Shown here in pieces: positions 23,537-44,211 of a stretch of 49,306 bases of DNA. The DNA is from Microbacterium sp. (GTDB lineage: Bacteria > Actinomycetota > Actinomycetes > Actinomycetales > Microbacteriaceae), in assembly GCA_052092505.1 (NCBI GenBank), contig JBQDDT010000001.1, positions 1 through 49,306 of the forward strand, given 5' to 3'. The position numbers and the translations under genes are program-made. Position 1 is the first letter of the stretch. Every line of letters starts with the position of its first letter. Below the pieces are notes generated by a model. It made no database searches. It saw only the letters and a list, made by a program, of their open reading frames with translations, and was not told where the DNA came from.

Positions 23537-25363
23537 GTGTCGAATCGAACCGGAGTGCATCGGGCGCAGCGTCCCGCTCAGCATGTGGCTCGATCGACCG
23601 CCCGCAGGCGCCGCTGGCCGCGCATCACGGCGTGGAGCATCTGCGGCGTCTTCGTCGTCGTCATCCTCTGCGGTGTCATCTTCGCGCTTCAGGCGAAGTC
23701 GGTCGCATCCGACCTCATGGCGGCCAAGGACGAGCTGTCGGCCGTCGTCGACGACGTGCAGGCGGGCGACTCCGAGAAGATCGCCGAACGCGCCGACGAC
23801 GTGCACGAGCTGACCGAGCGCGCCAACCGGACGGTGAGCAATCCGCTCTGGTCCATCGCGTCCGCGGTGCCCGTCGTCGGCAAGAACGTCGATGCCGTCC
23901 GCCTCGCCACGCAGGCGACCTACGCCCTCGTCGACGGGGCGCTGCAGCCGGGCCTGACGATCCTCGACAGCCTCAGCCTCGATAACGCGTCCGTCACGGA
24001 GGGGGGGATCGACCTCGCCCCGCTGCGCGACGCGGAGAAGTCGCTGCCGCAGATCACCGAGGCGTTCGAGGTCGCGAACGACAAGGTCGGCGACATCGAC
24101 CGCGAGCGGATCCTGCCCGTCGTGGACGACGCCGTCGGCTCGCTCATCGAGATCATCGAGGCCAGCACCCCGACCGTCCAGGTCGTCGAGAAGTACCTGC
24201 CGACGCTGCTGAGCGTCGCCGGTGCGGACGACCCGCGCCGCTACATGCTCGTCTTCCAGAACAACGCCGAGATCCGCTCGGGCGGCGGCCTCCCCGCGGC
24301 GACCGCGATCGTCGACGTCGACAACGGCAAGGCCGATCTGGCCGAGCAGACGAGCACCTACAGCTTCCGCCGCGACACGAAGGTGATCGACCCTCCCGAC
24401 GAGATGGAGCAGCTCTACGAGGAGGACACCTTCACCGGGTTCGGCAACTTCACGCGCACGCCGAACTTCCCGACGACGGCCGAGATGTTCGACTCGCTGT
24501 GGAACCTCACCACGGATGAGCACCTCGACGGGGTCATCACGATCGACCCGGTGGTGCTCGCGCACATGCTCGAGGTCACGGGGCCCGTCACGGCGAAGGA
24601 CGGCACGGAGCTCACCGCCGACAACGCGGTGCAGACCCTCCTCTACGACACGTACATCCGCCTCTCGGGTGACGCGCAGGACGCCTTCTTCGGCGACGTC
24701 GCGTCTCGTGTGTTCGACAAGATCTCCGACGGCGGATGGGACCCGGTCGAGATGCTCGATCAGCTCGTGCGATCGGTCGACGAGCAGCGCATGCACATGT
24801 GGTTCTCGCGTGAGGACGAGCAGGCGATGGTCGTCGACCTCGGGCTCGACGGCCAGCTGACGACGACGAACGACGAGGGCACCGAGGTCGGGATCTTCCT
24901 CAACGACTACTCGGCCAGCAAGCTCACCTACTTCCTGGAGTCGGACATCCAGGTCACCTGCGACGCCGATGCCGGCACGATGACGACCTCGATCACGGTC
25001 GCGAACAACGTTCCGATCGGGGAGCTGACGAACTACCAGCTCGGCATCCGCAATCGGCGCTACGGAATCCCGCGCGAGTCGTTCATCCTCGACGTGATGT
25101 TCTTCGCGCCTCCCGGCTCGCAGATCGTCGGATCCGACCCGATCCCCGATGACGAGTCGATCACGCGCACGGGCGTCGAGGACGAGCGCAACGTCCAGAG
25201 CAACCGCTACTTCATCGCGAGCGGCGACGAGAAGACGATGTCGTTCACGAGCACGATCCCCTCGGACGAGCAGGGCCCCCTCTCGGTGCGCTACTCGCCG
25301 ACCGTGACCGACACCCCGATCCAGGTCGGTCCCAGCTGCTCGTCGGTCTTCCCCGAGAAGTAG
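23537..25363 (+). CDS. DUF4012-like membrane-anchored extracytoplasmic protein
   Basis: Basic N-terminus plus one TM, helical region, PRRYMLVFQNNAEIRSGGG, TPNFPTTA, DGVITIDPV, SKLTYFL; TATGCT 6 nt before GTG 23537. Confidence 0.8.
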   Translation: MSNRTGVHRAQRPAQHVARSTARRRRWPRITAWSICGVFVVVILCGVIFALQAKSVASDLMAAKDELSAVVDDVQAGDSEKIAERADDVHELTERANRTVSNPLWSIASAVPVVGKNVDAVRLATQATYALVDGALQPGLTILDSLSLDNASVTEGGIDLAPLRDAEKSLPQITEAFEVANDKVGDIDRERILPVVDDAVGSLIEIIEASTPTVQVVEKYLPTLLSVAGADDPRRYMLVFQNNAEIRSGGGLPAATAIVDVDNGKADLAEQTSTYSFRRDTKVIDPPDEMEQLYEEDTFTGFGNFTRTPNFPTTAEMFDSLWNLTTDEHLDGVITIDPVVLAHMLEVTGPVTAKDGTELTADNAVQTLLYDTYIRLSGDAQDAFFGDVASRVFDKISDGGWDPVEMLDQLVRSVDEQRMHMWFSREDEQAMVVDLGLDGQLTTTNDEGTEVGIFLNDYSASKLTYFLESDIQVTCDADAGTMTTSITVANNVPIGELTNYQLGIRNRRYGIPRESFILDVMFFAPPGSQIVGSDPIPDDESITRTGVEDERNVQSNRYFIASGDEKTMSFTSTIPSDEQGPLSVRYSPTVTDTPIQVGPSCSSVFPEK

Positions 25364-25406
25364 CGGCCGAGGCGCGTCTGACGCGGCGGCGCGCTCGCCG
25401 GTCGCG

Positions 25407-26636
25407 TCAGTCCGATCTCCGGCCGGGGCCTCGGCGCGGCCGGAGCACCGCAAGGCGCGCGACGATCCTCCGTCGAAGCGATGCTGCCGCCGCCTTGCGC
25501 TCTCGCACGACGGCCAGCCGCCGTCGCGTGTGCTCCGCGCCCGGCTTGAGCTCGAGGACGCGGAGCATCGCCTGCTCCGCACCCGCGTAGTCGCCGTCCG
25601 AGAGCAGCCATTCGCCGAGACGCAGGTGGTACTCCGGCCGGTGGGGATCGATGTCGACCGCTCGTCTCATCGCCGCGGCCGCTGAGCCGAAGTCCTTCCT
25701 CGCCGCGTGGACATAGCTGAGTCGGACGTGCGGATCGGCGTCGCTCGGATCGATCGCGGTCGCGGCGGTGAGGGAGTGCTCGGCATCGTCGAGCTCTCCT
25801 CCTCGCAGAAGCTGGGCCCCCAGATTCGCGTGGAGCCGCGCGATGGATGGACTCTTCTCTGCGGCGATCCTCAGCTGCGCGATCGCGCCGTCGCCGTCGC
25901 CGTTCTTCGCGAGACGGCTGGCCTCGCGCTCATAGGGGTAGTGCGTCTCCAGGGTCGCCGCATCCACCTCGCGACGAAACGCGGACTCGTCGAACGTGTC
26001 GGCGGCGATCTCGGAGATGAGCCGCTTGATCCTGTACGTCCGATTCAGATAGAACCCGACGGGGTGGTTGCCGTAGTCGAGCGGGATGAGGGTCGCTGCG
26101 GTGTTCTCGGCGATCCGCTGCGCATGCGGGCGGTCCGGCGACGACGCGCAGTAGAAGACGTATCCCTGCGATTCCCGACCGACGCCCGTCTTGATCAGGT
26201 TGTAGTCGAAGCGCGTGTGGGACCAGTCATCGGCCCAGCGTCGTTCGTCGAGCTCGTTCTCCGGCCCGACGTCGAACAGCGGCGAGACCGCGATGAACTG
26301 ATCGGCATCCAGCATGTGCGCGAAGTTCACGGCCGCAAAGGCCCCCATGCTGCTGCCGTAGGTGAGGATCCGGGTGCCGTGGGCCGCGTCGACGATGAGC
26401 TCGGCGACGCGTTCGATCTCCGGGGTCTGATACCAGTGATTGCGATTGCGGCGGATGAGGTATTCGTTCATGCGGAGCGGAGAGAAGCGTCCGCGTCCGA
26501 AGCCGGGGCCGAACAGCGCCGTGGCATCGGTCGACAGGGAGTCGTCCCTCGACTCGAACGTCACGATCGAGACGGGGTGGCCGCCGTCATGCACATCCAG
26601 CGCGAGATCCGCGCCGCTGAAGATCGTCGTGTGCAT
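25407..26636 (-). CDS. Alpha/beta-hydrolase (GxSxG) fused to C-terminal TPR repeats
   Basis: IVTFES, NHWYQ, TYGSSMGAFAA nucleophile elbow, GNHPV; four TPR-like repeats (HANLG...A...P). ORF open from 26879, but TATCAT 7 nt before ATG 26636 favours this start. Confidence 0.7.
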   Translation of the reverse strand: MHTTIFSGADLALDVHDGGHPVSIVTFESRDDSLSTDATALFGPGFGRGRFSPLRMNEYLIRRNRNHWYQTPEIERVAELIVDAAHGTRILTYGSSMGAFAAVNFAHMLDADQFIAVSPLFDVGPENELDERRWADDWSHTRFDYNLIKTGVGRESQGYVFYCASSPDRPHAQRIAENTAATLIPLDYGNHPVGFYLNRTYRIKRLISEIAADTFDESAFRREVDAATLETHYPYEREASRLAKNGDGDGAIAQLRIAAEKSPSIARLHANLGAQLLRGGELDDAEHSLTAATAIDPSDADPHVRLSYVHAARKDFGSAAAAMRRAVDIDPHRPEYHLRLGEWLLSDGDYAGAEQAMLRVLELKPGAEHTRRRLAVVRERKAAAASLRRRIVARLAVLRPRRGPGRRSD

Positions 26637-26853
26637 GGCCCAGATGATACGCGCGAGTTCGAGGAGCGCGGTGGACGCAACGCTGGCCCCGTCTCGCGAG
26701 GCCAGGCGCTCGCCGTCGAACGTCATGATGGGCGGGTCATCTCCCGCGGCCGATATGACGGAACCGAATCGCCTGTGGCAGGATGGGATGATCTCGCCCA
26801 GCAGGACGGGGTTCGTGTACTGGGTCCAATGAGGGGAGAGGGGTTCTATTCGC

Positions 26854-29800
26854 ATGGCGAAGGTCGCCGCGCGCGTCAAGCGCGCATCGGTCGCCGTGCT
26901 TTCGCGAACCTACGTGCGCCAGGGGATCGTCCCGATCGCCGCGCGTCTCCTCGTGCGGGAGAGCATCCGCGACCGCTTCGAGAAGGCCGGATCCGCTCCG
27001 GCACCCGACGAACCCGGCCTCTCCCGACGCCAGTTCTATGAGCTGCACCCGCTGAATCCCCCGCGCCGATGGCTCTCCAACCGCGTGATCGCCCGTCGCG
27101 TCGTGCCGGGCCTCGCCGACCTCATGGAGGCCGCTCACTGCGTCGTCTCGCGCGCCGCCGAGCGTGCCGACGGGGTGTCGGTCGTTCCGCTCGAGTCGTT
27201 CCCCGCCGGAGTGACGGCCGACATCGACGGCCTCGTCGATCTGATCCGGCGGCGCGGCGTGGTCCGCGTCCTGCCGCTTCGCTGGGATCGGGGGGCGGGC
27301 TTCGCGCTCTCGGCGATCGATGACGGCTTCCTCCTCGACGGACGACCGGTCTCGCTCGACGAGCTGCGCGAGGCACTGGTCGAGGTCACCTCCCGAATCC
27401 GCTGCATCGTCCTCGACGAGACCGAGCGTCTCGAGGTCCTCCCCGGCGTCGACGCCGGCTCGACCCTCGTCCGCCTGTACGTGGCCCAGCGCGACGACCA
27501 GGCGAGGGTGCTCGACGCGGAGGTCCTCGGCGGGGACGTGCTCCGCGAGACGGGGGAGCGCGACGACGACCGCCTCATCCGCCCGCGGGCGTGGCTGAGC
27601 CGTTCGCCGTTCTACTCGCTCGACCTCGTGCGGGGGCGGTTCGCCTCGCGCAGGGGAGTCGACGAGACGACCGGCGCCCTGATCGGTGCCGACCCGCCGC
27701 GATCCCTTCCCGGCTACGTGGAGATGGTCGACGACATCGAGGCGGTGCTCAGCCACCGCCGGAGCCGGTTCGCGTTCATCTCCGTCGACGTCGTGCTCGC
27801 CGCCAGCGGCGGATACCGCCTCGTCGACATCGCGTCGCGTCCGGTCCGCCCGCACGGGAGGGACTTCAGCCCCGCGGCGGTCGCGCACCTCCAGGAGATG
27901 CGGCGCGACGGGGATCGCCGCAGGGCGCAGCGGGCGCGTGCGGCGTCGGCCAGGCATCGGGTCCGTCGGGGCCTCGTGCGCGCTCGGAGCCGGGTGGCCG
28001 CCTTCTCGCTCCGCTCGGCCGGCTTCATCGGCCCGTCGGCGAAGGAATGGAACCGTCTGCGGCTGCGGGATCGTCGCAGCGGACGTCACTCCGCCGGCGC
28101 GGTCCGCAGGGCGCACGCGCTCGGGTTCCGGCCTGGCACGATGGAGCGCTTCGCGATCGGCGCCGACGGTGCGCGCTCGTTCCTCTCGGAGCGGGACTAC
28201 CTCTACGCCCAGCCGCTCAACGGCAAGTACGCCAAGTGGATCCGCGACCGCGTCTCGGTGCTGATGGTGTTCCGGCCCTTCGATCGCCTGTTCGCTCCGA
28301 CGCACTTCCAGGTCTACCGCAGGGATCGCGGCCTGCACCTCGTCCCCCTCTCCGAGGAGGCGACGGCGCTCGGAGCGGATCTCGACGCGCTCGCGCAGCT
28401 CCTGCAGAGCCGCGGCGAGCTCGTGCTCACGCCGACCCGCTGGCGGGAGCGGGTCATCGCGCGCGTCTCGCACGACGGCCGTCGCTTCCGCGTGAACGGG
28501 ATGGCCTGCACGCCGGGCGAGCTCTTCGAGCTGCTGGCGAGCTATGCGCGCCGCGCGTCCCTCCTCTTCGTCGAGCGCCGCGGCGACGGCACGGTGGCGC
28601 CGACGGAACCGGGCGAGGACCGGCGGATCGTGCGCGTGACGATGATGAACGCGACGGGCGACGACCCGCGCGCCGCCGAGGTGCTCCTGCGGATCCCCGC
28701 GACGCTGCCGGCTCCCGGGGCCGGCGGAGGCGAGGAGCCGCGGGACACGACGCCGGACCCGGACGAGGCGCCGGCGACCGGCGAGGCCGTGGAATCGGGC
28801 TCCGCCGCGGCCGCCGCCGACGCCGAGGCCGAGGATGCGGCGGAGCGTCGCGCCGCGCTGTGGGCGCTGGCCGATCCGGAGACGGGCGACTACCGCGACG
28901 CGCGCCGGGCGATCGACGGCGAGCTGCGCACCTTCGAGCGCCACCCGAACACGGGGGAGCGGATCGCGGGGCGCATCGAGGGATGGCCGGACGCGCTTCG
29001 CACCCTGCAGGAGATGTGCCGGTTCGCCCCTCAGCTGCGGTTCCTGCAGTTCACCCTCGAACTGTCAGACGGCTCGGTGCTGATCCGACGGATCGCCGAG
29101 AAGCCGCTGCTGAGCGCCGAGTTCCCCGCCTCGCCCGAGATGGTCGCCTTCATCCAGGAGCAGGTCGACGAGAAGCGGCGTCGCGCGGCTCGCCCGCGGG
29201 CCAGGATCGCCCGCGGGCTCCACAACGCCAAGCTCAAGCTCCGTCGCGAGTTCGCCAAGGCGCTCTACCCGCAGGGGCTGCTGCCGTACCAGTCGGTCCG
29301 GTGGCTCGGCGACATCCGCCGCGACCTCCTCCAGCGCAACGGCGTCCCGATCCGCACCAAGCTGTGGGCTTACCGCAACGGCTTCCTGTCCTACCGCGTG
29401 CCGCAGTACGAGATCACGCCGGCGAACCGGACTCAGTTCATCTCCGACTTCGAGTACCGCTGGCTGCGCCACATCAACACGCGCTACAAGTACTGGCTCG
29501 AGGACAAGATCAGCATCAAGTACGTCGCCGCGGAGTACAACGAGTTCCTCCCCGGCTACTACTACATGACGAGCACGAACGGCGGCCGCAACCACCTGAT
29601 CCCGATGATGGACTGTCCACCGGGCTACGAGGCGCGCTTCGACGAGGTCCTCCGCCTGGCCAGGGAGAAGGGCATCCTGGCCCTCAAGCCCGACGAGGGC
29701 TCCCACGGCGACGGCTTCTACCGCCTCGCGCACGAGGACGGCGGATTCACTCTGAACGGCGTGCCCGCCACGGAGGACGAGGTCCTCGCGATCCTGCGCG

Positions 29801-30384
29801 ATCCGGAGAACCGCTATCTCGTCACCGAGTTCATCCGGATGCACCCGCGCCTGGCCGAGATCTACCCCACGTCGGTCAACACGATCCGGATGATCGTGTT
29901 CAAGCGGGATGCGGCCACCCCGGAGCTCGGCACCTGCTACCTGCGCATCGGCTCCGAGGCATCCGGCTACGTCGACAACACCGCGGCGGGCGGGCTGCTC
30001 GCGCGGATCGACGTCGCCTCCGGTCGGTTCGGCGATGCGAAGGTCCTGGAGAACGGGCGCGTCGTCGACAGCCCCTGCCACCCCGACACGGGGGTGCTGA
30101 TCGAGGGCGTCATCCCGAACTGGGAGCTCGTCAAGGCGCAGGTGCTGGAGATGGCCGCGAGCTTCTCGCAGCTGGAATACCTTGGATTCGATGTGGCCAT
30201 CACCGAGGATGGCTTCAAGATCCCCGAGATCAACCGCTTCCCGGACTTCCCGAGGATCGAGCGACTGACACCAGCGACGATCGACTACCTGCTCATGAAG
30301 CTCGGCGAGAAGAAGAGGCAGTACGGCTACCACCGCCGCCGCCCGCGGCGGCTCATCTCCCTGCCTCGGAGGGACGGGTCATGA
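26854..30384 (+). CDS. 1176-aa protein with three tandem sugar-transfer-associated ATP-grasp units (C-terminal one intact)
   Basis: C-terminal LKPDEGSHGDG, VTEFIRMHP, SVNTIRMIV, VDNTAAGG, HPDTG, YLGFDVAITEDGFKIPEINRFP; homologous decayed segments upstream. Confidence 0.78.
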   Translation: MAKVAARVKRASVAVLSRTYVRQGIVPIAARLLVRESIRDRFEKAGSAPAPDEPGLSRRQFYELHPLNPPRRWLSNRVIARRVVPGLADLMEAAHCVVSRAAERADGVSVVPLESFPAGVTADIDGLVDLIRRRGVVRVLPLRWDRGAGFALSAIDDGFLLDGRPVSLDELREALVEVTSRIRCIVLDETERLEVLPGVDAGSTLVRLYVAQRDDQARVLDAEVLGGDVLRETGERDDDRLIRPRAWLSRSPFYSLDLVRGRFASRRGVDETTGALIGADPPRSLPGYVEMVDDIEAVLSHRRSRFAFISVDVVLAASGGYRLVDIASRPVRPHGRDFSPAAVAHLQEMRRDGDRRRAQRARAASARHRVRRGLVRARSRVAAFSLRSAGFIGPSAKEWNRLRLRDRRSGRHSAGAVRRAHALGFRPGTMERFAIGADGARSFLSERDYLYAQPLNGKYAKWIRDRVSVLMVFRPFDRLFAPTHFQVYRRDRGLHLVPLSEEATALGADLDALAQLLQSRGELVLTPTRWRERVIARVSHDGRRFRVNGMACTPGELFELLASYARRASLLFVERRGDGTVAPTEPGEDRRIVRVTMMNATGDDPRAAEVLLRIPATLPAPGAGGGEEPRDTTPDPDEAPATGEAVESGSAAAAADAEAEDAAERRAALWALADPETGDYRDARRAIDGELRTFERHPNTGERIAGRIEGWPDALRTLQEMCRFAPQLRFLQFTLELSDGSVLIRRIAEKPLLSAEFPASPEMVAFIQEQVDEKRRRAARPRARIARGLHNAKLKLRREFAKALYPQGLLPYQSVRWLGDIRRDLLQRNGVPIRTKLWAYRNGFLSYRVPQYEITPANRTQFISDFEYRWLRHINTRYKYWLEDKISIKYVAAEYNEFLPGYYYMTSTNGGRNHLIPMMDCPPGYEARFDEVLRLAREKGILALKPDEGSHGDGFYRLAHEDGGFTLNGVPATEDEVLAILRDPENRYLVTEFIRMHPRLAEIYPTSVNTIRMIVFKRDAATPELGTCYLRIGSEASGYVDNTAAGGLLARIDVASGRFGDAKVLENGRVVDSPCHPDTGVLIEGVIPNWELVKAQVLEMAASFSQLEYLGFDVAITEDGFKIPEINRFPDFPRIERLTPATIDYLLMKLGEKKRQYGYHRRRPRRLISLPRRDGS

Positions 30385-35187: not shown

Positions 35188-35972
35188 TGAAGCTCAGCCT
35201 GGCCGGCGTCACGCAGCAGTACGTGACGGACAAGGGGGAGAGGGTCGACGCCCTCGGCTCCACCGACCTCGACATCGAGGAGGGCCAGTTCGTGTGCGTC
35301 GTGGGGCCGTCGGGCTGCGGCAAGTCGACCCTGCTGAACATCATCGCCGGGTTCCTCGAGCCCACGACCGGCACCGTGCGGATGGACGGCGAGGAGATCA
35401 CCGGGCCGGACCGCGCCCGCGGGGTCGTGTTCCAGCAGCCGACGCTCTTCCCGTGGCTGACGGTGCGCCGCAACGTCGAGTTCGGGCTGAAGCTGAAGGG
35501 GCTCTCGGCCGACGAGCGCGGCCGCGCGGCCGCCGACGCGCTCGAGCTCGTCGGGCTGTCGGACTTCCATGAGAGCAAGCCGTACGAGCTCTCGGGCGGG
35601 ATGCAGCAGCGCACGCAGATCGCGCGCGTGCTGGCGAACGATCCGTCGGTCGTGCTCATGGACGAGCCGTTCGGGGCGCTCGACGCGATCACGAGGGAGA
35701 AGATGCAGAACGATCTCCTCGACGTGTCGCGCGAGAAGAGGAAGACGGTGTTCTTCATCACGCACAGCGTCGATGAGGCGATCGTGCTCGGGGAGCGGGT
35801 GCTCGTGATGAGCCCGCGACCCGGCCAGATCGTGCGGGACGTCCCCGTCGCGATCTCGAAGGCGTACGGTCGGCCGCTGAAGGGCGCGGAGATCCGTGAG
35901 ACCCCGGAGTTCAGTGAGATGCGCGACTCGATCGCGTCGAGCATCGGGATGTCGGCGGACGCCGCGGCGTGA
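35187..35972 (+). CDS. ABC ATPase, TauB/SsuB family
   Basis: GPSGCGKST, VVFQ, LSGGMQQR, LMDEPFGALD, ITHSVDEA; TGATG overlap. Confidence 0.92.
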   Translation: MKLSLAGVTQQYVTDKGERVDALGSTDLDIEEGQFVCVVGPSGCGKSTLLNIIAGFLEPTTGTVRMDGEEITGPDRARGVVFQQPTLFPWLTVRRNVEFGLKLKGLSADERGRAAADALELVGLSDFHESKPYELSGGMQQRTQIARVLANDPSVVLMDEPFGALDAITREKMQNDLLDVSREKRKTVFFITHSVDEAIVLGERVLVMSPRPGQIVRDVPVAISKAYGRPLKGAEIRETPEFSEMRDSIASSIGMSADAAA

Positions 35973-36002: not shown

Positions 36003-39000
36003 ATGGCTGATGGCGACATGATCCGCAGGGCACGCTCCGTCGCGCGCAAGGTGAAGCGCCGCGTGCAGGCGGCGACGAACACTCCCGATGCGGCGATGAG
36101 TGCCGCGGCGGATGGCGTGGTGAGGGTGACGGCCGGCGGCGACCGCACGGAGGCCGTGCCGAGACGACCGCGGGCGAAGATGGTCACGGAAGCCGGTGTC
36201 CTCTTCCAGATCGCCGACGGCGAGGCGAAGGTCACCGGTCTCGAAGAGGGGGTCGTCGAGGCCATGATCCCCGCGGAGGTCGCCGGAGCCGTCGTCACGA
36301 CGATCGGGCGCGAGGCGTTCCAGGACAGTGTGGACCTCATCGCGGTCCGGATCCCCGAGTCCCTCACCGTGCTCGGCGCTCGGGCGTTCGTCGGCTGCAC
36401 CTCGCTCACCGACGTCGAGCTGCCGAGCGATCTGACGGTGATTAACGCGAGTGCCTTCGAGGGGTGCACGGCGCTCGAGCGCGTCATCCTCCCTCACGAG
36501 CTGCAGCGCATCGCGCGGCGTGCGTTCGCCGGCTGCACCGCGCTGGCGGAGATGCCCCACTACGTGAAGACCGGCATCAGCATCGGCCTCACGGTGGATC
36601 GGACGATCGTCGAGGAGGCCTTCCCGACGGAGCTCCGCCACATCGGAGAGGAGGCGTTCTCCGGGTGCGGTGCGCTCCGCAAGGTGGTCATCCCGTTCCG
36701 CACGGAGAAGCTCCCCCGGGGAGTCTTCCGGGGGTGCACCGCGCTCGAGACCGTCTGGCTGCATGCGGGCATCACGGAGATCGGCGCGGGCGCCTTCGCC
36801 GCGTGCCGCGAGCTCGACCGCATCTCCGTCCCCGCCGCGACCGAGACGATCGGTGAGGGCGCCTTCCCCGCGCAGGTGACGATCGTGTGCGCCGAGGGCT
36901 CCGCCGCCCGCGCTCACGCGGAGTCCGCCGGTCTGCGCACCTCCGACGCGACGGCCGTCGGCGAGCCCATCCACTCCGCATTCGGTGCGACCGCGTCGCC
37001 GACGGTCGCGGACGTCGTCGCCTCGCCCGAGTCGACCCAGGCGTTCCTCGACCGGTACGCGCTGCGCCCGGCGGCGGAGCCCATCGCCCGCCCGGACACC
37101 GAGATGATCGACCGTCCATCGTCGCCCAGCCGGTTCCGGCTGCGGGACGGGGTGTACGAGCCGATCGCCGGCTCCGATGCGGGTGGTGAGGTGACGCTGT
37201 CGATGGTCGGCGATCTGATGTGCCGCTTCCGTCAGCAGGAGACGGCTCTCGTCGACGGCGAGTTCGACTTCTCGGAGAGCTTCCGCGACGTCAAGCCGCT
37301 CCTCGAGGATTCCGATCTGGCGATCGGCAATCTCGAGGCGATGCTCTCGACGTCGGTCCCCTACATGTTCGAGTCGAAGTACGTCGAGGATCGTCCCCAC
37401 CTGAACGCACCGCCGGCGTTCGCCGCCGCCGTGCGGGACGGGGGGTTCGACATGGTGCTCAACGCACAGAACCACATGTACGACGCGGGTGCGCAGGGCG
37501 TGCTCGAGACGCTCGACGCGCTCAACCGTGCCGAGCTGATCCACGGGGGTCTCTACGCGTCGCCGGAGGAATCGAGATTCCAGCTGTTCCGAATCAAGGG
37601 GATCACCCTCGGCGTCGTCTCGTACCTCGACGGTGCCCGTCAGAAGATGAAGCAGGCGAACTTCACGCCGGAGGGCCTCGCCGCCACCGCGAGCCCCTTC
37701 GATGCGGAGCGGGTGCGCGAGGACATCGCGGCCGCACGCGAGGCCGGGGCGGAGTTCGTTCTCGCCTACGCGCACTGGGGGCGCGAGTACACCGACCACA
37801 TCACGCAGCGGCAGCAGCGGTTCGCCCGGATGTTGGTCGACGGCGGCGTGGATTACGTCTTCGGGTCGCACTCGCATTGCCCGCAGCCGTACACGATCAT
37901 GACGGCGCAGGACGGCAAGCGGGTCCCCGTGATCTACTCCGGAGGGAACTTCGTCTCCGACATCGGGCTCGCCCGTCCGATCACACAGGACACGTTCGTC
38001 GCCCGCCTGACGCTCGGACGCGACGCAGGCGGCTCGGTGCAGATCCTCCGCGACGGCTACGTGCCGTGCCGCATCGTCGAGGGGCGCGACATCCGCGGAT
38101 TCGTCCGCGTGGTTCCCTGCGATGAGCTCATCTCCGGGACGCAGGACTACAGCCAGCTCCAGGCGGAAGAGGACGTGAGCCGCATCTCCGCGGCGCTCGG
38201 CCGACAGTACTCGCGACTCGCGGCCGACGGGTCACCGATGCCGGAGCGCGAGGATGCGGCGCGAGGGATGACGCCGGAGGACGAGCTCGTCGACGCCTAC
38301 GCGCTGCGCGAGCCGGCATTCCTTCGCCAGGAGCACGTCGTCGACGCCGGGCGCGCTCCGTCGTACCGCTTCGACGCGTCGTCCGAGGCGTGGCGGCGCG
38401 AGCACGACACGAGCGTCGGCGAGGCGATCCTCGTGTGCGCCGGATCGATCCTCTACGACAGCGCGCTCGAGCGCGCGGCCGAGGTCGGGGACCGGTACGA
38501 GTTCCGCTCGCACTTCCGTCACGTCCGCGAGGCCCTCGGTGCAGGCGACCTCGCCGTCGGCAGCCTCGGCACGATCGTCGCCGACATGTATCCGCCGATG
38601 TCGGTCATGGCGCGCGAGCTGGCCCGCGGTCACTACGCGAACGCGCGACCGGAGTACCTCGACGCGCTCCGGTTCGCCGGCTTCGACTGCCTCGCGCTCG
38701 CCAACCCGTACAACCTCGATGCCGGCGTGCGCGGGGTCGCGGCGACCGAGCGAGCCGTTCTCGAGAGCGGGATCGTCCCGAGCGGGATCGGCCGGAAGAA
38801 GACCCCGATCATCGACGTCAACGGCATCAGGATCGCGGTGTTCTCGCTCACCCTGAACGAGTACAGCATGCGCACCTACCTCACGGAGGAGGGCGCCGGA
38901 GCGATCCTCAATGTGTTCGACGAGCAACGTGCGCGTGTCGACATCGCGACAGCGCGTGAAACGGGCGCGGAGTTCGTCCTCGTCTACCTCGACTGCCGCT

Positions 39001-40850
39001 CCTCGGGTGACCAGCTGAGGTTCGCCGACCGCCTCGCGGCTGGGCGGACGGCCGCTGAGGCGGGCGCGGACTACGTCATCTGCGTCCAGCCGCACGTGCT
39101 ATCCAAGCACCGCACGCACACGACGGCCGACGGCCGCGCCGTTCCCATCGCGACTGGACTCGGGACCTTCATGGCGGGGCCGACGAATCGCGTCGACGCG
39201 TCCGGGGCGCTTCTGAAGATCGCGGTGCGGCGGCGCCCGGACGGCGGGGTGGAGATCGCGGACACGTTCCTTCCGCTGAAGCGCTGCTCGGATTACGCGG
39301 GCACGCGGAACGCGATCGTGTCGGCCGATGCCACGCACAATCCGTCGTACGACGCGAGTGAGCTCGGCCCGGCCGCGCGCGAGGCGGCCGAGAAGCTCGG
39401 GGAGGGCATCGCGCCGGAGCGCCCGCGCGAGGTCTCGGTCCGCTCGCAGTTCCGGCCGCAGGTCACTCCCGCGGAGATCGCCGAGATCCTCGGCGTCGCG
39501 TTCTCGGACGCTGACAGGCGCACGCTCGGTGACGCCATCGACCGACCGGTCGAGAACGTCGCTCTGCGCCAGGAGGACCTCCGCCGTGGCGGGGTCGCGG
39601 TCTTCGTCCGGCGTCCGGGAAAGCTCGCCGAGACCGAGCAGATCAGCCCCGCGCACGTGCACGACGTCGGGTCGCTGTTCGCGATCGCGACCGCGCCGCA
39701 GCGGGGACTTCCCACGCTGGTCGTCCCGAACGCGCTCGCCGCCTACGAGACGATCGTCACTTCGATCCGAGCGAAGTACGACCCGGTGACGGTCGCGATC
39801 ACCGGAACGGTCGGAAAGACGACCGCGAAGGAGCTCATGGCGGAGGCCTTCCACCGTCACTTCCGCACGCTCGTGGTCCGGGGCAACAACAACACTCTGG
39901 TGACCGTCGGTCAGGTCGTGCAGAAGCTCACACCCGACTACGAGGCGTACATCCAGGAGGTCCACGGCGGCTCGCCGGCGTCGGCCCACCGCATTTCGCG
40001 CGTCATCCGTCCCGACGTCGCGCTGATCACCGCGATCGGGGACGGGCATCTCGCGCAGATGGGGTCGATCGAGAAGGTCGTCGAGGGCAAGATGCAGATC
40101 ATCGACGGGCTGAAGGACGGCGGCGTCCTCGTGATCAACCACGACAACGAGCACCTCAAACACCAGGAACCACCGGTGCGGACGGTCCGCTACAGCGTGG
40201 AGGACGCCTCCTGCGACTACTTCGCCCGCGACATCCGCGACACCGGGGAGCGGCTCGAGTTCCAGATCGTTGCCCCGGACGGGGTCTTCGAGGCGAAGCT
40301 GAACTTCCAGGGCGTCCACAACGTCAGCAACGCGCTCGGGGTCTTCGCCGCCTCGCGCGAGGCGGGGATCCCGCCGCACACGATCATCGCGGGAATGTCG
40401 AGGTTCGTGCCGGACACGGTGCGCCAGAACCTCGCGGAGGTCGGCGGCTACCGCCTGCTCATCGACACCTACAGCTCCACACCGATGTCGGTGCTCTCCG
40501 CGGTGCGGACCCTCAGCGCCGTCCCCGTGGCGGAGGGGTCGCGACGGATCGCGGTGCTCGGTGACGCCCCCGACCTCGGAGTGCGGGCGAAGGACGCGCA
40601 CATCGAACTCGGCGAGCAGATCGCCGATCTCGACGTCGACCTCGTCCTCTGCTGTGGCGAGGCGTCCGTGCACCTCGTGGAGGCGGCGCGGAAGAAGGGG
40701 ATGAACGCGCACTTTTTCGCCGGACGCGCGGAGTTCAACCGCAAGATCGTCGAGGAGAGCCGGCCGGGCGACGTCCTGCTCTTCAAAGGCGGGATGCGGG
40801 TCAAGCTGCTGGAGAACACGGTCCATCCGCTCTTCGGACGGATCGTCTGA
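36003..40850 (+). CDS. Giant fusion: BspA-type LRR + CapA/PgsA metallophosphoesterase + degenerate CapA + MurF-like ligase
   Basis: LRR repeats (IG..AF.GC..L..V.LP); CapA motifs GDLM, GNLE, AQNHMYD, YAHWG, GSHSH, YSGGNF; Mur motifs AITGTVGKTTAKE, ITAIGDGH, HNVSNA, RRIAVLGD, LFKG; SD AAGGA before ATG 36003 (ORF open from 35982). Confidence 0.8.
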   Translation: MADGDMIRRARSVARKVKRRVQAATNTPDAAMSAAADGVVRVTAGGDRTEAVPRRPRAKMVTEAGVLFQIADGEAKVTGLEEGVVEAMIPAEVAGAVVTTIGREAFQDSVDLIAVRIPESLTVLGARAFVGCTSLTDVELPSDLTVINASAFEGCTALERVILPHELQRIARRAFAGCTALAEMPHYVKTGISIGLTVDRTIVEEAFPTELRHIGEEAFSGCGALRKVVIPFRTEKLPRGVFRGCTALETVWLHAGITEIGAGAFAACRELDRISVPAATETIGEGAFPAQVTIVCAEGSAARAHAESAGLRTSDATAVGEPIHSAFGATASPTVADVVASPESTQAFLDRYALRPAAEPIARPDTEMIDRPSSPSRFRLRDGVYEPIAGSDAGGEVTLSMVGDLMCRFRQQETALVDGEFDFSESFRDVKPLLEDSDLAIGNLEAMLSTSVPYMFESKYVEDRPHLNAPPAFAAAVRDGGFDMVLNAQNHMYDAGAQGVLETLDALNRAELIHGGLYASPEESRFQLFRIKGITLGVVSYLDGARQKMKQANFTPEGLAATASPFDAERVREDIAAAREAGAEFVLAYAHWGREYTDHITQRQQRFARMLVDGGVDYVFGSHSHCPQPYTIMTAQDGKRVPVIYSGGNFVSDIGLARPITQDTFVARLTLGRDAGGSVQILRDGYVPCRIVEGRDIRGFVRVVPCDELISGTQDYSQLQAEEDVSRISAALGRQYSRLAADGSPMPEREDAARGMTPEDELVDAYALREPAFLRQEHVVDAGRAPSYRFDASSEAWRREHDTSVGEAILVCAGSILYDSALERAAEVGDRYEFRSHFRHVREALGAGDLAVGSLGTIVADMYPPMSVMARELARGHYANARPEYLDALRFAGFDCLALANPYNLDAGVRGVAATERAVLESGIVPSGIGRKKTPIIDVNGIRIAVFSLTLNEYSMRTYLTEEGAGAILNVFDEQRARVDIATARETGAEFVLVYLDCRSSGDQLRFADRLAAGRTAAEAGADYVICVQPHVLSKHRTHTTADGRAVPIATGLGTFMAGPTNRVDASGALLKIAVRRRPDGGVEIADTFLPLKRCSDYAGTRNAIVSADATHNPSYDASELGPAAREAAEKLGEGIAPERPREVSVRSQFRPQVTPAEIAEILGVAFSDADRRTLGDAIDRPVENVALRQEDLRRGGVAVFVRRPGKLAETEQISPAHVHDVGSLFAIATAPQRGLPTLVVPNALAAYETIVTSIRAKYDPVTVAITGTVGKTTAKELMAEAFHRHFRTLVVRGNNNTLVTVGQVVQKLTPDYEAYIQEVHGGSPASAHRISRVIRPDVALITAIGDGHLAQMGSIEKVVEGKMQIIDGLKDGGVLVINHDNEHLKHQEPPVRTVRYSVEDASCDYFARDIRDTGERLEFQIVAPDGVFEAKLNFQGVHNVSNALGVFAASREAGIPPHTIIAGMSRFVPDTVRQNLAEVGGYRLLIDTYSSTPMSVLSAVRTLSAVPVAEGSRRIAVLGDAPDLGVRAKDAHIELGEQIADLDVDLVLCCGEASVHLVEAARKKGMNAHFFAGRAEFNRKIVEESRPGDVLLFKGGMRVKLLENTVHPLFGRIV

Positions 40851-40866
40851 CGACGAAGGAAGACGT

Positions 40867-43800
40867 ATGCGCAGGTTCGTTGCACGAGTCGCGAAGGCGC
40901 CATTGCGCGCCGTGAAGGCCGTCAACCGGCGCACCTCGAACGTCGTGTCGGAACCCATCGCCGGCGGTCTGCTGTCGACGGGCAGGACGGGAGACCTGCC
41001 CGTTCTCGCGCGACTCTGCGTCGCTCGAACGGGTGCGTCGGGCCGTGCGCTGCTCATTGCACGGGCGGCCTCACTGAACGGCGGGCGCATCGAACGCCTG
41101 CAGCGGCTGCTCCGAGACTTCCCCGAGACGTTCGGCCGCGTCCTCCTCTTCGGTGAGAATGCGACGGCATATGCCGGACGCCTCGCCCGAGTCGCGTCGT
41201 CGGTCGAGGCGATCGATGACCGCTATGCGCTGCGCGACGCGATCGCTGACTACTGGGGGACGAGTGACGCCCCGGCGATCGCGGTCGTCGGTGCGACCAA
41301 CCCCGGCATCGCCTGGGCCGTCGACGATGTGCTCGGCACCTGCACTGTCCTGTCTTCCGTCGGCGTGCGCAGGCGTGCGATGCGGGTGAAGACAGCACAC
41401 GTCGAGGTCGACCTCGTCTCCGGGGCGGGAGCGTATGTGGTCTCCAGTGGAGTCGAAGCAGGGGACCTCGTCGTGCCGAACACCGCCGCCGGCATGGGGG
41501 TCTCGACGATCGCGCCGGGGGCTTTTCGAGGGGCCTCGCTCACGTCCATTCTCGCGCCGGCGCCTCTGCGGACGATCGGCGCGGAGGCCTTTGCGGGGTG
41601 CTCCGATGTCACGCGGGTCGTCCTGCCAGGCACGCTGCGTTACGTCGGGGCGTCCGCCTTCGAAGGCGCCGCCGCGCTGGAGCGGATCCACATCCCGAAT
41701 GGCGTGCACACGATCGGTCCTTGGGCGTTCGCTGGATGCGGCGCGCTGCGGAAGGTCGTGCTGCCCGAGTCCCTCGTGACGATCGCGGACGATGCCTTCG
41801 TCGGCGCTCACCCGGAGCTCGAGTTCCACGCCCCGGAGGGGTCGGAGGCTTATCGCTGGGCGAGCGAGCGCGGACGGGTGGTCAGTGCGGAACCGGCGCC
41901 GGCCGCAGAGACGCTGGAGACCGTGCGTGTGACCCAGGATGGTGTGGAGTACGCCGTCCTCCCGGGCGGGATGGTCGAGGCGTGCCGGGTCGACGACTCG
42001 GTGTCCGGCGTTCTGGAGCTGCCCGCAGAGGTGCACGGGCACGCGGTCCGTGGGATCGGGCATGACTTCGTCGGGGGTAAGACGTCGGTCTCCGAGATCG
42101 TCCTGCCGGCGAGTGCCAGGTGGGTCTCGGCGCACGCGATCGCGAGGCCGGTCGTGAAGCGCGTGCGCGGGGCTCGAAATCTGCAGTGGCGCGGCCGTGG
42201 CACTGTGCAGAAGGCGCTGATCCGTTTCAACCCGCGCAAGCCCATCGACGCCGACTCGGTGCGTCTGACGATGCGGATGCTCGCGGAACTGGTCGACATC
42301 GACGTCCCGGCAGACTTCGCCGACGACATGGATGAGCCCTACCCGTCGCTCGCGTCGTCGGTCTTCACGTCGGGGGTGGGCAGCCTGTACTTCGCCTCCG
42401 CGCGCGAGCTGACTCCCGACGTCGTCGATCGGCTCGTGGGACGGGGCGTGCGGGCGTTCGTGAGTGACGGCGCGGTGCGAGACGGCCGTGGCGAGCCCGT
42501 CCCGCAGGCGTTCACGGACGATCCACGTCGCGCATTCGAATCGGCCTGTGCGTGGATCGCACGGCAGCACTCGGTCACGACGATCGCCATCACGGGCAGC
42601 GTCGGCAAGACCAGCACGAAGGAGATGATTCGGCACGTCTGCGAAAGCGCGCTGTCGGTGCACTACAGCACCGGCAACCAGAACGGCCCCGCTCAGGTCG
42701 CGCGCCACGCGCAGAACGTCACCGACAAGCACGACGTCTTCATCCAGGAGACAGGGGCGGCATACCCGGGCATCGTCGAACGGGGCGCGCGGATCCTCCG
42801 TGCGAACGGCTTCGTCATCACCAACATCGGGCTCAATCACGTCGGGAACTACGGCGGCAGCCAGGAGCGGCTCCTCGCTGACAAGCTGAGCCACGATCGG
42901 CACATGCCGGAGGACGGCGTGGCCTTCGTCAATCTGGACGATCCGAAGCTGCGGGAGGTCGAGCTGACCCACCGCATCATCTCGTATGCCGTCGACGCCC
43001 GAGACGCCGACTACTTCGCCGAGGACGTCGTCGAGGAAGAGGGCACGGTGCGCTTCCAGATCGTCGAGTCGTCCTCGGGCGAGCGCACGCCGGTCGTCGT
43101 CAACGCGGTCGGGCGCCACAACGTCTCGAACGCGGTCGTCGCGTTCGCGGTGGGCCGATGGCTGGACGTCCCAGTACGGAAGATCGTGGAGGGCATCGGC
43201 TCGTACGAGGGGGAGGGGCTCCGGCAGAACCTCACCGAGATCGGCGGTCGGCGCGTGCTCATCGACTGCTACAACGCGTCGGAAGTGGCCATCGGGAGCA
43301 CCGCGGACGCGCTGCAGGCGATCTCGGTTCCGGAGGGCGGTCGGCGCATCTACGTCGTCGCCGACATCGACGACAAGCTCGGCAGCATCACCGAGGAGGT
43401 GCATCGTCGCGTGGGCGTCGCGCTCGCCGAGGCCGACGGCATCGACCGCTTCTACCTCTTCGGCGCGCACGCGGCATGGATCGCGGAGGAGCTGACCGCA
43501 CTCGGTCGTGACGCGGTCGCGACGACCGATCGCGACGAGCTGACCGAGAGGCTGCGCGACGACCTGCGCGAGGACGACCTCGTCGCGTTCAAGGGCGGTC
43601 AGCAGATGGCTCTGTCGATCACGATCGACACGCTGTTCGGCACGGCGTTCGTGCTCTCCGACGGCGACGTGCTCGAGAAGCGCGGCACGAACATCTCAGA
43701 CGGAGGCATGACGTACCGGCTCATCGACGAGTACGGCGCTCAGCTGCGGAAGGTGCCCCCGGAGTTCCCCGGCACGTCGCTGGTGGTCGAGCCCGTGATC

Positions 43801-44211
43801 GACGGCGTACCCGTGTACATGGTCGGACGGTCGGCGTGCTCCAACTCTCCGCTGGTGGAGGCATCGATCCCCGAACCGGTCCGCACGATCGCGCGGGCGG
43901 CCTTCTTCCGCAACCGCGCGCTCGAGCGGATCGATCTGCCCGCCACGCTCCTCCACATCGGCCAGAGCGCGTTCAACGGGTGCTCGTCGCTGCGCGAGAT
44001 CGTCGTCCCCGAGGGAGTGACGACGATCGGACACCGCGCGTTCTTCCGCTGCACCTCGCTCGAGCGTCTGGTGCTCCCGGCATCCGTGCGGACGATCGAT
44101 CCGGAGGCGTTCCGCGGGTGCACGGCGGTGACGATCGAGTGCCCCGCCGGCTCGTACGCGGAGAGCTTCGTCCGCGAGCACTACCGCAGGCTCGCCGTCG
44201 CCTCGACCTGA
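40867..44211 (+). CDS. Fusion: BspA-type LRR + MurF-like ligase + LRR
   Basis: LRR blocks near both ends; AITGSVGKTSTKE, ITNIGLNH, HNVSNA, LIDCYNAS, HRRVG, VAFKG; SD GAAGGAAG. Confidence 0.8.
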   Translation: MRRFVARVAKAPLRAVKAVNRRTSNVVSEPIAGGLLSTGRTGDLPVLARLCVARTGASGRALLIARAASLNGGRIERLQRLLRDFPETFGRVLLFGENATAYAGRLARVASSVEAIDDRYALRDAIADYWGTSDAPAIAVVGATNPGIAWAVDDVLGTCTVLSSVGVRRRAMRVKTAHVEVDLVSGAGAYVVSSGVEAGDLVVPNTAAGMGVSTIAPGAFRGASLTSILAPAPLRTIGAEAFAGCSDVTRVVLPGTLRYVGASAFEGAAALERIHIPNGVHTIGPWAFAGCGALRKVVLPESLVTIADDAFVGAHPELEFHAPEGSEAYRWASERGRVVSAEPAPAAETLETVRVTQDGVEYAVLPGGMVEACRVDDSVSGVLELPAEVHGHAVRGIGHDFVGGKTSVSEIVLPASARWVSAHAIARPVVKRVRGARNLQWRGRGTVQKALIRFNPRKPIDADSVRLTMRMLAELVDIDVPADFADDMDEPYPSLASSVFTSGVGSLYFASARELTPDVVDRLVGRGVRAFVSDGAVRDGRGEPVPQAFTDDPRRAFESACAWIARQHSVTTIAITGSVGKTSTKEMIRHVCESALSVHYSTGNQNGPAQVARHAQNVTDKHDVFIQETGAAYPGIVERGARILRANGFVITNIGLNHVGNYGGSQERLLADKLSHDRHMPEDGVAFVNLDDPKLREVELTHRIISYAVDARDADYFAEDVVEEEGTVRFQIVESSSGERTPVVVNAVGRHNVSNAVVAFAVGRWLDVPVRKIVEGIGSYEGEGLRQNLTEIGGRRVLIDCYNASEVAIGSTADALQAISVPEGGRRIYVVADIDDKLGSITEEVHRRVGVALAEADGIDRFYLFGAHAAWIAEELTALGRDAVATTDRDELTERLRDDLREDDLVAFKGGQQMALSITIDTLFGTAFVLSDGDVLEKRGTNISDGGMTYRLIDEYGAQLRKVPPEFPGTSLVVEPVIDGVPVYMVGRSACSNSPLVEASIPEPVRTIARAAFFRNRALERIDLPATLLHIGQSAFNGCSSLREIVVPEGVTTIGHRAFFRCTSLERLVLPASVRTIDPEAFRGCTAVTIECPAGSYAESFVREHYRRLAVAST

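What the first reader, a model, noticed from the sequence alone, without database searches (positions are those of the whole stretch)
23537..44211. Candidate undescribed surface-polymer amide-ligation system: ATP-grasp x4 + Mur ligase x2 + CapA + TagF-like + NTP transferase + taurine-type importer
Seen: nine same-strand genes (26854-44211), joined by stop/start overlaps or gaps of 3-90 nt, flanked by a DUF4012-like gene and a divergent esterase-TPR gene, directly after tRNA-Ser(GCT). Established: ATP-grasp and Mur ligases both form amide bonds. That pairing builds cyanophycin (CphA), CapB/CapA build poly-gamma-glutamate, and TagB/F enzymes transfer CDP-activated alcohol phosphates to wall polymers. 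Inference: the operon makes or decorates an anionic peptide-like wall or capsule polymer (teichuronopeptide- or PGA-like) using an imported amino-sulfonate. I recognise no named pathway with this set of parts. No classical glycosyltransferase, Wzx/Wzy/Wzm-Wzt exporter or CapC is present, so it may be a tailoring module that acts on a polymer made elsewhere.
Basis: partly seen in the sequence, partly recalled or inferred. Interest (0 to 1): 0.85.

Follow-up and report, generated by a model that had tools for sequence, protein, structure and literature searches.

The report
Taurine-linked peptide wall-polymer operon
A nine-gene operon of a Microbacterium-like actinobacterium joins a teichoic-acid-type priming pair, amino-acid ligases and a taurine importer; it likely builds an unstudied amino-acid-bearing cell-wall polymer that may carry taurine, a decoration that related bacteria may have recruited several times.

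Summary
The nine genes are real and packed as described, but the reading needs four corrections. (1) Only 2 of the 4 ATP-grasp domains and 1 of the 2 CapA domains keep catalytic residues. (2) The operon is layered. The core is the TagB-like transferase, ATP-grasp and nucleotidyltransferase, together in 12 of 12 well-flanked distant loci and sometimes fused. Wzm/Wzt (9 of 12) and LCP (5 of 12) often adjoin it, so it likely feeds a lipid-linked, exported wall polymer. MurF-like/CapA ligases are a dedicated accessory clade. (3) The importer keeps all six taurine-binding residues of TauA. It is not core (1 of 80 metagenome loci), but 7 of 16 relatives' copies also lie in wall-polymer loci, 3 of them with amide ligases. 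(4) DUF4012 has a predicted LCP fold; the TPR gene is a private insertion. Best reading: a teichoic-acid-like, amide-extended wall polymer, possibly taurine-capped. No substrate was tested and no paper on the cassette was found. This scan found the same core (e1-3975525, e1-4176526) and the DUF4012/LCP fold before on other DNA; the taurine link is what this locus adds.

The parts
23245..23336 (+). tRNA-Ser(GCT); left landmark, not shown to be an integration site
   Evidence: no second copy of its 3' end in the window
23537..25363 (+). DUF4012 protein, 608 aa, one N-terminal membrane helix; predicted LCP-like domain at residues ~230-435; candidate polymer-to-wall ligase, link to the cassette moderate
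   Evidence: pLDDT 93.5; 8 of 8 Foldseek hits at E<=0.001 are LCP-type; Z 11.8, rmsd 3.7, 174 aligned; beside cassette genes in L013, L014, L107; DUF4012 homologues in 56 of 60 genus genomes, none of which has the cassette
25407..26726 (-). GxSxG-motif plus TPR protein, 439 aa; private insertion, probably not part of the system
   Evidence: absent between DUF4012 and G1 in L013/L014; not found in 4 of 4 cassette-bearing genomes
26854..30384 (+). G1, 1176 aa: three ATPgrasp_ST-type repeats, only the third catalytically intact; likely chain-extending amide ligase
30381..31511 (+). G2, 376 aa: single-domain TagB/TarB-like phosphotransferase with both TagF catalytic histidine equivalents (H120, H248)
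   Evidence: both His in 50 of 50 aligned family members
31499..32548 (+). G3, 349 aa: intact ATPgrasp_ST amide ligase (alternative start 31508); fused to the G2 family in L026 and L047
32552..33181 (+). G4, 209 aa: small GT-A-fold nucleotidyltransferase of an unnamed family; substrate unknown
   Evidence: PntC Z 16.5, tied with Mth528 16.1, GlmU 15.8, LicC 15.6
33272..34105 (+). G5: TauC-like ABC importer permease
34126..35187 (+). G6: TauA-like binding lipoprotein (lipobox Cys23) keeping all six taurine contacts: Q58, G90, G108, E137, T163, D236
35187..35972 (+). G7: TauB-like ATPase
36003..40850 (+). G8, 1615 aa: LRR_5 repeats, intact CapA domain (candidate peptide epimerase), degenerate CapA domain, MurF-like ligase
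40867..44211 (+). G9, 1114 aa: LRR_5, MurF-like ligase, LRR_5

Best explanation
The operon likely builds an amino-acid-extended, teichoic-acid-like wall polymer on a lipid carrier, and its imported taurine would serve as an amine that caps or decorates the chain. Shown: the parts, their intact or dead active sites, and their co-occurrence. Inferred, step by step: (1) G4 nucleotidylates a phosphorylated housekeeping metabolite. No kinase, phosphonate or transaminase gene recurs with the cassette; I favour a carboxylate-bearing one such as 3-phosphoglycerate or phosphoserine. (2) G2 transfers it as a phosphodiester onto a lipid-linked glycan, as TagB does with glycerol phosphate. (3) G3, sometimes fused to G2, adds the first amino acid, and G1 extends the chain, its dead repeats acting as binding or spacer modules. 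(4) The MurF-like domains of G8 and G9 add further residues or taurine to chain carboxylates, and the intact CapA domain epimerises L- to D-residues. (5) A Wzm/Wzt pair encoded elsewhere exports the product, and an LCP or the LCP-fold DUF4012 protein fixes it to peptidoglycan. I put about 0.8 on 'amide-bearing wall polymer through a lipid-linked ABC route', about 0.5 on taurine incorporation, and about 0.3 on the named class of G4 substrate.
For: Core linkage: TagB-like and NTP genes lie beside the G3 family in 12 of 12 dereplicated loci with >=5 kb on both sides; Wzm 9, G1-type 7, Mur 6, CapA 5, LCP 5 of those 12. TagB-ATP-grasp fusions in L026 and L047, and an ATP-grasp-LRR-CapA fusion in L054. 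Order G1-G2-G3-G4-G8 is kept in 41% GC gut loci L022-L024. The cassette's Mur domains form their own clade (24 of 30 rows, SH 100) apart from housekeeping Mur ligases. All Pfam-called enzymes lack membrane helices, so they act in the cytoplasm. Taurine: six of six TauA contacts kept, including Asp205, which separates TauA from SsuA. No TauD in the genome (80% complete). The importer stays with G8 and G1 at a second site in G757 next to Wzm/Wzt and LCP. A distant TauA/TauB adjoins the cassette in L047. 7 of 16 fetched G6 loci elsewhere in the order lie in wall-polymer loci, 3 with TupA, CphA-like or MurF-like ligases, and the tree needs at least 4 changes for that label. Precedents read as passages: taurine amide on uronic acid in S. 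aureus CP1 (PMC12043029), ATP-grasp amidation of a capsule uronate by Cj1438 (PMC11800379), CapA homologue MslH as peptide epimerase (PMC8179263).
Against: No substrate, product, transcript or mutant was tested. No TagA (PF03808) in 5 of 5 Microbacteriaceae genomes searched, two of them 100% complete, so the canonical linkage unit is missing and G2's acceptor is unknown. TauA is beside the cassette in only 1 of 80 metagenome loci and 0 of the 12 well-flanked ones. 21 of 390 order genomes have G6 and none has G4. 9 of the 16 fetched G6 loci are not wall loci: 3 beside TauD, 2 beside a class III aminotransferase with a MocR regulator, 2 beside sulfur-transport genes, 2 unclear. No exporter or Pfam LCP in the window, and no Pfam LCP in this assembly. 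Profile-profile comparison does not link DUF4012 to LCP (probability 8%). A review says ATP-grasp ligases generally activate the donor's carboxyl (PMC3815933), which would fit an amine primer instead. The background for wall genes (33 of 1261 windows) comes from one fragmented genome and is probably too low.
Confidence: 0.5

Rival explanations
1. Tailoring module: the genes amidate and phosphodiester-substitute a polysaccharide made by other loci, adding single amino acids or taurine as side groups, with no peptide main chain.
For: No TagA. In G757 and G065 the genes sit at the host's general Wzm/Wzt wall-polysaccharide locus. Taurine importers elsewhere lie with UDP-sugar dehydrogenases (L118, L119, L121), as expected for uronate amidation. 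Cj1438 and CP1 are side-chain precedents.
Against: In many distant loci the core sits directly with Wzm/Wzt and LCP with no glycosyltransferase between them (L036, L037, L043, L062). Four intact ligases plus an epimerase-like domain are more than single-residue decoration needs. No uronic-acid pathway gene in the window.
Confidence: 0.25
2. Amine-primed variant: the importer brings 2-aminoethylphosphonate or a similar amino-phosph(on)ate, G4 makes the CMP conjugate as PntC does, G2 installs it, and the ligases build on its amine.
For: PntC is the top fold match for G4 (Foldseek 2.8e-8, Z 16.5); AEP is isosteric with taurine; many ATP-grasp ligases activate the donor.
Against: The PntC match is tied with Mth528, GlmU, LicC and IspD. 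E. coli TauA binds AEP weakly (Kd 649 uM against 1.6 nM for taurine; PMC6906117). The importer separates from G4 in G757 and is absent near G4 in 79 of 80 loci. No phosphonate-synthesis family among the 78 neighbour proteins scanned.
Confidence: 0.12
3. The taurine importer is a passenger used for sulfur scavenging; the polymer is built by G1-G4 and G8-G9 without taurine.
For: The same TauA clade sits with TauD or aminotransferases in 5 of 16 loci; most cassettes lack it; its nearest relatives are other actinobacterial TauA proteins at 55-60%, unlike the ligases.
Against: It lies mid-operon without catabolic genes, stays with G8 and G1 after rearrangement in G757, and a 34%-identical TauA adjoins the cassette in L047.
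Confidence: 0.1
4. Intracellular polyamide or small metabolite (cyanophycin- or F420-tail-like) rather than a surface polymer.
For: All enzymes are cytoplasmic; nucleotidyl activation followed by phospho-transfer and glutamylation is F420 logic (recalled).
Against: Recurrent Wzm/Wzt and LCP neighbours; cyanophycin synthetase model scores 29-32 bits against a cut-off of 850.
Confidence: 0.03

Closest known systems
Wall teichoic acid pathway (TagO/A/B/D/F, TagGH, LCP) of Bacillus subtilis and Staphylococcus
   Same: TagB/F-family phosphotransferase with both catalytic His; a nucleotidyltransferase partner; ABC-2 exporter and LCP as recurrent neighbours.
   Different: No TagA found; no polyol-phosphate polymerase in the operon; amide ligases take the place of the polymerase; G4 passes no TagD, TarI or IspD cut-off.
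Teichuronopeptide of Bacillus halodurans (TupA) and Campylobacter jejuni Cj1438 amidoligase
   Same: ATP-grasp amide ligation on a surface polymer; TupA-type domains replace or fuse with the ST-type in L032 and L046.
   Different: The window's ligases are ATPgrasp_ST, not ATPgrasp_TupA; no uronic-acid pathway in the window; a TagB-like primer is present.
Staphylococcus aureus type 1 capsule, strain M (taurine amide on GalNAcA; PMC12043029)
   Same: Precedent for taurine amide-linked to a Gram-positive surface polymer.
   Different: CP1 is a polysaccharide; I did not compare its biosynthetic genes; here the acceptor is predicted to be a peptide or linker carboxylate.
Poly-gamma-glutamate synthase CapBCA/PgsBCA and the epimerase MslH
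   Same: An intact CapA-family domain beside Mur-superfamily ligases.
   Different: No CapC; ligases are MurF-like; CapA is cytoplasmic and fused to LRR and Mur domains.
PntC/LicC cytidylyltransferases (PMC6697681)
   Same: Small GT-A nucleotidyltransferase beside a polymer phosphotransferase.
   Different: 13-14% identity; fold match tied with other families; no PepM, LicA or LicD seen nearby.
LCP phosphotransferases (Cps2A, TagT/U/V, LcpA)
   Same: Predicted fold of DUF4012 residues 230-435 and a single N-terminal membrane anchor.
   Different: 8-14% identity; long helical stalk and C-terminal beta domain; different conserved residues (R234, N242, E245, R247, D331, D337, R418).

Membership tests
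Wall teichoic acid pathway | TagB/TagF-family phosphotransferase with two catalytic histidines | tested here: met
   G2 H120 and H248 align to H444 and H584 of TagF 3L7I; their catalytic role is recalled; 50 of 50 conserved
Wall teichoic acid pathway | TagA ManNAc transferase making the linkage disaccharide | tested here: not met
   PF03808 found in 0 of 5 genomes (G000, G065, G059, G756, G757); control rang in 7 of 14. Non-actinobacterial hosts could not be searched.
Wall teichoic acid pathway | CDP-polyol supply and polyol-phosphate polymerase | tested here: inconclusive
   G4 is far below IspD/TarI cut-offs; G2 is primase-sized; three other Glyphos_transf genes lie on contig C129
Wall teichoic acid pathway | ABC-2 exporter and LCP ligase | tested here: inconclusive
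   Absent from the window; Wzm/Wzt on C21; no Pfam LCP in G000, but C21 ends inside wzm and relatives have LCP two genes upstream of a wzm; beside the cassette in 9 and 5 of 12 distant loci
Poly-gamma-glutamate synthase (CapBCA) | CapA-family domain with metallophosphoesterase motifs | tested here: met
   G8 domain 1 keeps VGD, GNLE, NH..D, HWG, G.HSH; homologous to 8GQ9 at E 1.8e-5 (that this entry is MslH is recalled)
Poly-gamma-glutamate synthase (CapBCA) | CapB ligase with the membrane subunit CapC | tested here: not met
   Mur domains score best as MurF; no CapC family hit and no other membrane protein in the operon
Cyanophycin synthetase CphA | ATP-grasp and Mur domains in one CphA polypeptide | tested here: not met
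   TIGR02068 29-32 bits against cut-off 850; the domains are in separate genes
Teichuronopeptide (TupA) system | ATPgrasp_TupA ligase with a uronic-acid polymer | tested here: not met
   No PF14305 hit and no nucleotide-sugar dehydrogenase among the window proteins scanned; PF14305 does occur in L032 and L046
TauABC taurine importer | TauA contacts Gln30, Gly61, Gly79, Glu106, Thr132, Asp205 | tested here: met
   Q58, G90, G108, E137, T163, D236; Gln placed from the SsuA-type alignment; TIGR01729 score 204.6 is under its cut-off of 304.25
TauABC taurine importer | Measured taurine binding and uptake | not testable with these tools
   needs ITC and uptake assays
LCP phosphotransferases (for DUF4012) | LCP fold with a membrane anchor | tested here: met
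LCP phosphotransferases (for DUF4012) | Sequence membership (PF03816) and the catalytic Arg/Asp set | tested here: inconclusive
   No PF03816 hit, hhalign 8%; conserved Arg/Asp exist but could not be superposed on an LCP active site
PntC/LicC cytidylyltransferases | Closest fold and linkage to phosphonate or choline pathway genes | tested here: inconclusive
   Top but tied fold match; no such genes among the neighbours scanned

The most novel reading that the evidence does not exclude
A third class of Gram-positive secondary wall polymer: a non-ribosomal peptide chain with D-residues, built by ATP-grasp and MurF-like ligases on a teichoic-acid-type lipid-linked primer, capped with imported taurine to give a sulfonated surface, exported by Wzm/Wzt and fixed to peptidoglycan by an LCP or by DUF4012 as a second ligase family. 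TauABC importers would then often serve wall building rather than sulfur scavenging in Micrococcales.
Probability: 0.25. Interest if true: 0.88.

Novelty: new variant of a known kind. Interest (0 to 1): 0.68.

Why it matters
It would give a first testable job to the ATPgrasp_ST family, to an unnamed nucleotidyltransferase family and to a dedicated clade of MurF-like ligases. It points to an amino-acid-based wall polymer in gut bacteria and actinobacteria, with possible effects on surface charge, phage binding and host recognition. It also offers candidate enzymes for taurine amidation of bacterial surfaces, a modification known chemically from S. aureus CP1. Two cultured relatives (JB110, M. 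halophytorum) carry the genes, so the tests are feasible.

Tried and rejected
Recent tRNA-integrated island: no att repeat, no marked GC shift; rejected. TPR gene as a part: absent in relatives; rejected. The downstream LLM oxidoreductase (44308-45294): not beside G9 in JB110; excluded. 'No LCP in the genome, so DUF4012 replaces it': weakened, since relatives with the cassette have LCP (5 of 5) and contig C21 ends just short of its usual place. DUF4012 as cassette-specific: weakened, 56 of 60 genus genomes have one, and 5 have a 36-38% identical copy within 5 kb of tRNA-Ser(TGA) without the cassette. G498 (30% identical to G3) has no cassette neighbours; not counted. Sequence search of the PDB with the G3 alignment found nothing; no structure was predicted for G1 or G3. 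Promoter, terminator and Rfam scans gave nothing beyond two tRNAs. No RNA holder listed. Plasmid hits were only distant ATPgrasp_ST proteins (5 records). Whole records behind the metagenome loci were not held, so TagA and TauA could not be sought in those hosts. Literature searches: 'ATPgrasp_ST' 0 papers; 'sugar-transfer associated ATP-grasp' 0; ATP-grasp + teichuronopeptide 4; DUF4012 3; taurine + cell wall + teichoic + Microbacterium 0; ATP-grasp + glycerophosphotransferase 1, a spore-coat paper seen as a listing only. Iyer et al. 2009, which I recall as defining these ATP-grasp families and linking them to surface polysaccharide loci, was not held; it and its supplements may already list this neighbourhood.
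Full report
Setting. The window is contig C1 of a 2.8 Mb, 71% GC, 80% complete genome. Its nearest named relatives carrying these genes are strain JB110 and Microbacterium halophytorum, 55-87% identical per gene, so the host is a Microbacterium-like member of Microbacteriaceae (inference).

Observation. Nine + strand genes run from 26854 to 44211 with junctions between -13 and +90 nt and coding-type GC3. Pfam and NCBIfam confirm the listed domains. Co-transcription is inferred from spacing only. No att repeat or marked GC shift marks a recent island.

Which active sites are intact. G1 holds three ATP-grasp repeats. Against G3, repeats 1 and 2 lack both ATP lysines and the E-x-N motif, while repeat 3 keeps K885, K945, D1113, E1125 and N1127 in 33 of 33 long homologues. 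G3's equivalents are invariant or nearly so in 30 aligned sequences. The dead N-terminal repeat is a family trait, seen in the five two-repeat homologues I aligned. G2 keeps both TagF histidine equivalents. G8's first CapA domain keeps its motifs and matches PDB 8GQ9; the second does not. Passages of PMC8179263 show that the CapA homologue MslH is a peptide epimerase and propose the same for CapA. Both Mur domains keep the P-loop and are closest to MurF. The genome has a separate MurF-type gene on C225 at 26-27% identity, beside an MraY-family gene. G4's model (pLDDT 94.1) is a GT-A nucleotidyltransferase; PntC leads (Z 16.5, rmsd 3.0, 186 aligned) but ties with Mth528, GlmU, LicC and IspD, so the fold does not name the substrate.

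The core travels widely. A metagenome scan with the G3 alignment confirmed 225 loci and returned the best 80. Across all 80, profiles built partly from these same loci found TagB-like genes in 66, G4 in 67, G1-type in 34, Wzm in 33, LCP in 22, Mur in 16, CapA in 12, Ddl in 5, TauA in 1 and DUF4012 in 0; many contigs are short. After clustering at 85% identity (48 clusters), the 12 representatives with at least 5 kb on both sides had TagB-like 12, G4 12, Wzm 9, G1-type 7, Mur 6, CapA 5, LCP 5, Ddl 2, TauA 0. Locus GC spans 0.26-0.65, and sporulation genes flank some loci, so hosts include Bacillota (inference). TagB-ATP-grasp fusions (L026, L047) and an ATP-grasp-LRR-CapA fusion (L054) tie the parts together. 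In the host's own lineage the cassette is rare: 2 of 300 family genomes have close G3 matches, 0 of 60 genus genomes, and G4 is in 0 of 390 order genomes. G065 has Wzm/Wzt one gene upstream of G1-G4; G059 has G1-G4 with three other ATP-grasp-like genes and a CapA gene within 9 kb.

The accessory ligases. On a FastTree of 30 Mur domains, 24 cassette-linked rows form one clade (SH 100) apart from three housekeeping ones; G8's nearest non-Microbacterium relatives are L022-L024, which keep the order G1-G2-G3-G4-G8. Among 25 representatives of at least 10 kb, CapA occurs with Mur in 6 of 7 cases and Ddl in 4 of 4. That pattern fits D-amino-acid peptide building.

The importer. G6 keeps the six taurine contacts listed in PMC6906117 (passages; alignment; positions). 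It is rare in the family (0 of 300 at E<=1e-40), and no TauD was found in this assembly. In JB110 the order equals the window's. In M. halophytorum (G757) G1-G4 sit at the tRNA-Ser site, while a second site holds DUF4012, G8, the importer, a second G1, two more Mur fusions, two Wzm/Wzt pairs and LCP: the importer follows the ligases, not G4. L047 has a 34% identical TauA beside the cassette. Across the order, 21 of 390 genomes have G6; I fetched 13 kb around 16 of the 21, leaving out five from genera already sampled. Pfam places 7 in wall-polymer loci (TagF, UDP-sugar dehydrogenases, Wzm/Wzt, LCP, glycosyltransferases); L117 has a TupA ligase, L118 and L119 have CphA-like ATP-grasp and MurF-like genes. 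Against that, 3 lie with TauD, 2 with an aminotransferase and MocR regulator, 2 with sulfur-transport genes and 2 are unclear. The 7 come from three families, four from one, so they are not independent; the tree needs at least 4 changes of the wall label, which could be one gain and several losses, and the label is not clustered beyond shuffles (68 of 500 as low). Background was 33 of 1261 windows in this genome, likely an underestimate. Taurine amides on a capsule are known chemically (PMC12043029, passages).

DUF4012. I noted an LCP-like motif, then folded the protein with 140 sequences. All 8 Foldseek hits at E<=0.001 are LCP-type and VIA-align ranks one first (Z 11.8), though TM-scores are low (0.33-0.50 by target) and hhalign sees no link. 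Copies 61-67% identical border the cassette at three sites in two relatives, against at most 48% in 60 other genus genomes. These are close kin, and DUF4012 is near universal in the genus, so the link is moderate. In print I found only a capsule-locus mention (PMC5412050, PMC6744442; passages).

Mechanism. Shown: parts, active sites, linkage. Inferred: G4 activates a phosphorylated metabolite, G2 primes a lipid-linked glycan with it, G3 and G1 add amino acids, G8 and G9 extend, epimerise and cap, Wzm/Wzt exports and an LCP-fold protein attaches. I favour a carboxylate primer because Mur-type ligases activate the acceptor's carboxyl (PMC3815933), Cj1438 amidates a polymer carboxylate (PMC11800379), and no dedicated precursor gene recurs among the neighbours scanned (28 and 78 proteins). 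The same review says ATP-grasp enzymes generally activate the donor, so an amine primer stays possible. TagA is missing from 5 of 5 genomes searched, so this is not a canonical wall teichoic acid: it works like one, with another linkage unit or on an existing polysaccharide. A TagO/WecA-family candidate exists on C47.

Novelty. Each chemical step has a precedent, but no paper in the searched library describes this set. Iyer et al. 2009 could not be read and may list the neighbourhood. Earlier scan notes report the same core in two other genomes and the DUF4012/LCP fold in several; they agree with my reading but are not independent evidence. I class it as a new variant of a known kind, interest 0.68; the taurine-capped peptide polymer is the bolder case at probability 0.25.

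Noticed in passing
L116:4060-6304 (Streptomyces phage Rooney) and L111-L115: Distant G4-family genes (23-36% identity) occur in phages, in Streptomyces phages between a glycosyltransferase and a methyltransferase (9 records); several Atlas clusters near G4 are rich in viruses. Possibly a virion or DNA glycan-modification module.
   Followed up: partly
L047:10682-11854, L039:7453-8802, L052:6586-7764, L085:17776-18969: A 390-450 aa family follows the MurF-like gene in four cassette loci; no Pfam hit in the three members scanned and no NCBIfam hit at E<=1e-12 in all four.
   Followed up: partly
L018:2176-4041 and L119:9099-12296: Acylphosphatase domains fused to a CphA-like ATP-grasp (G059) and to an enolase-like plus MurF-like protein (G1070) in wall-polymer loci; could proofread acyl-phosphate intermediates.
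   Followed up: no
L118, L119, L121: Capsule-type loci in other Micrococcales with UDP-sugar dehydrogenase and a taurine importer; L118 and L119 add CphA-like ATP-grasp and MurF-like genes, L119 and L121 add Wzm/Wzt, L119 adds CapA. Candidate pathways for taurine-amidated uronic acid polymers.
   Followed up: partly
L103:1530-6768 (G000 C129) and L102:1932-10992 (G000 C21): The genome has a second locus with three Glyphos_transf genes and a GT2, and a Wzm/Wzt locus with an FkbM methyltransferase and an O-antigen-ligase-like gene; either could supply the acceptor or the export step.
   Followed up: partly
L019:6707-8746 (G000 C61): A divergent pair of more distant ATP-grasp genes (one passes ATPgrasp_ST) near a DNA polymerase III alpha gene; weak matches of this kind occur in about 50 of 300 family genomes.
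   Followed up: no
window 22890-22943: A ~45-50 bp element between the two tRNA-Ser genes matches on both strands at many sites of this genome, like a REP-type palindrome.
   Followed up: no
window 25407-26726 (-): Protein with a GxSxG elbow (residues 124-128) and C-terminal TPRs, inserted between DUF4012 and G1; not found in four related genomes.
   Followed up: partly
L095:2492-9977: G3-type and two G1-type ATP-grasp genes next to SLH-domain genes and an octopine-dehydrogenase gene, without TagB or NTP genes; maybe a variant acting on S-layer polymers.
   Followed up: no
window 45302-46822 (-): ParA/MinD-like ATPase with a long Pro/Ala-rich N-terminal part downstream of the operon; not linked to it in relatives.
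   Followed up: no
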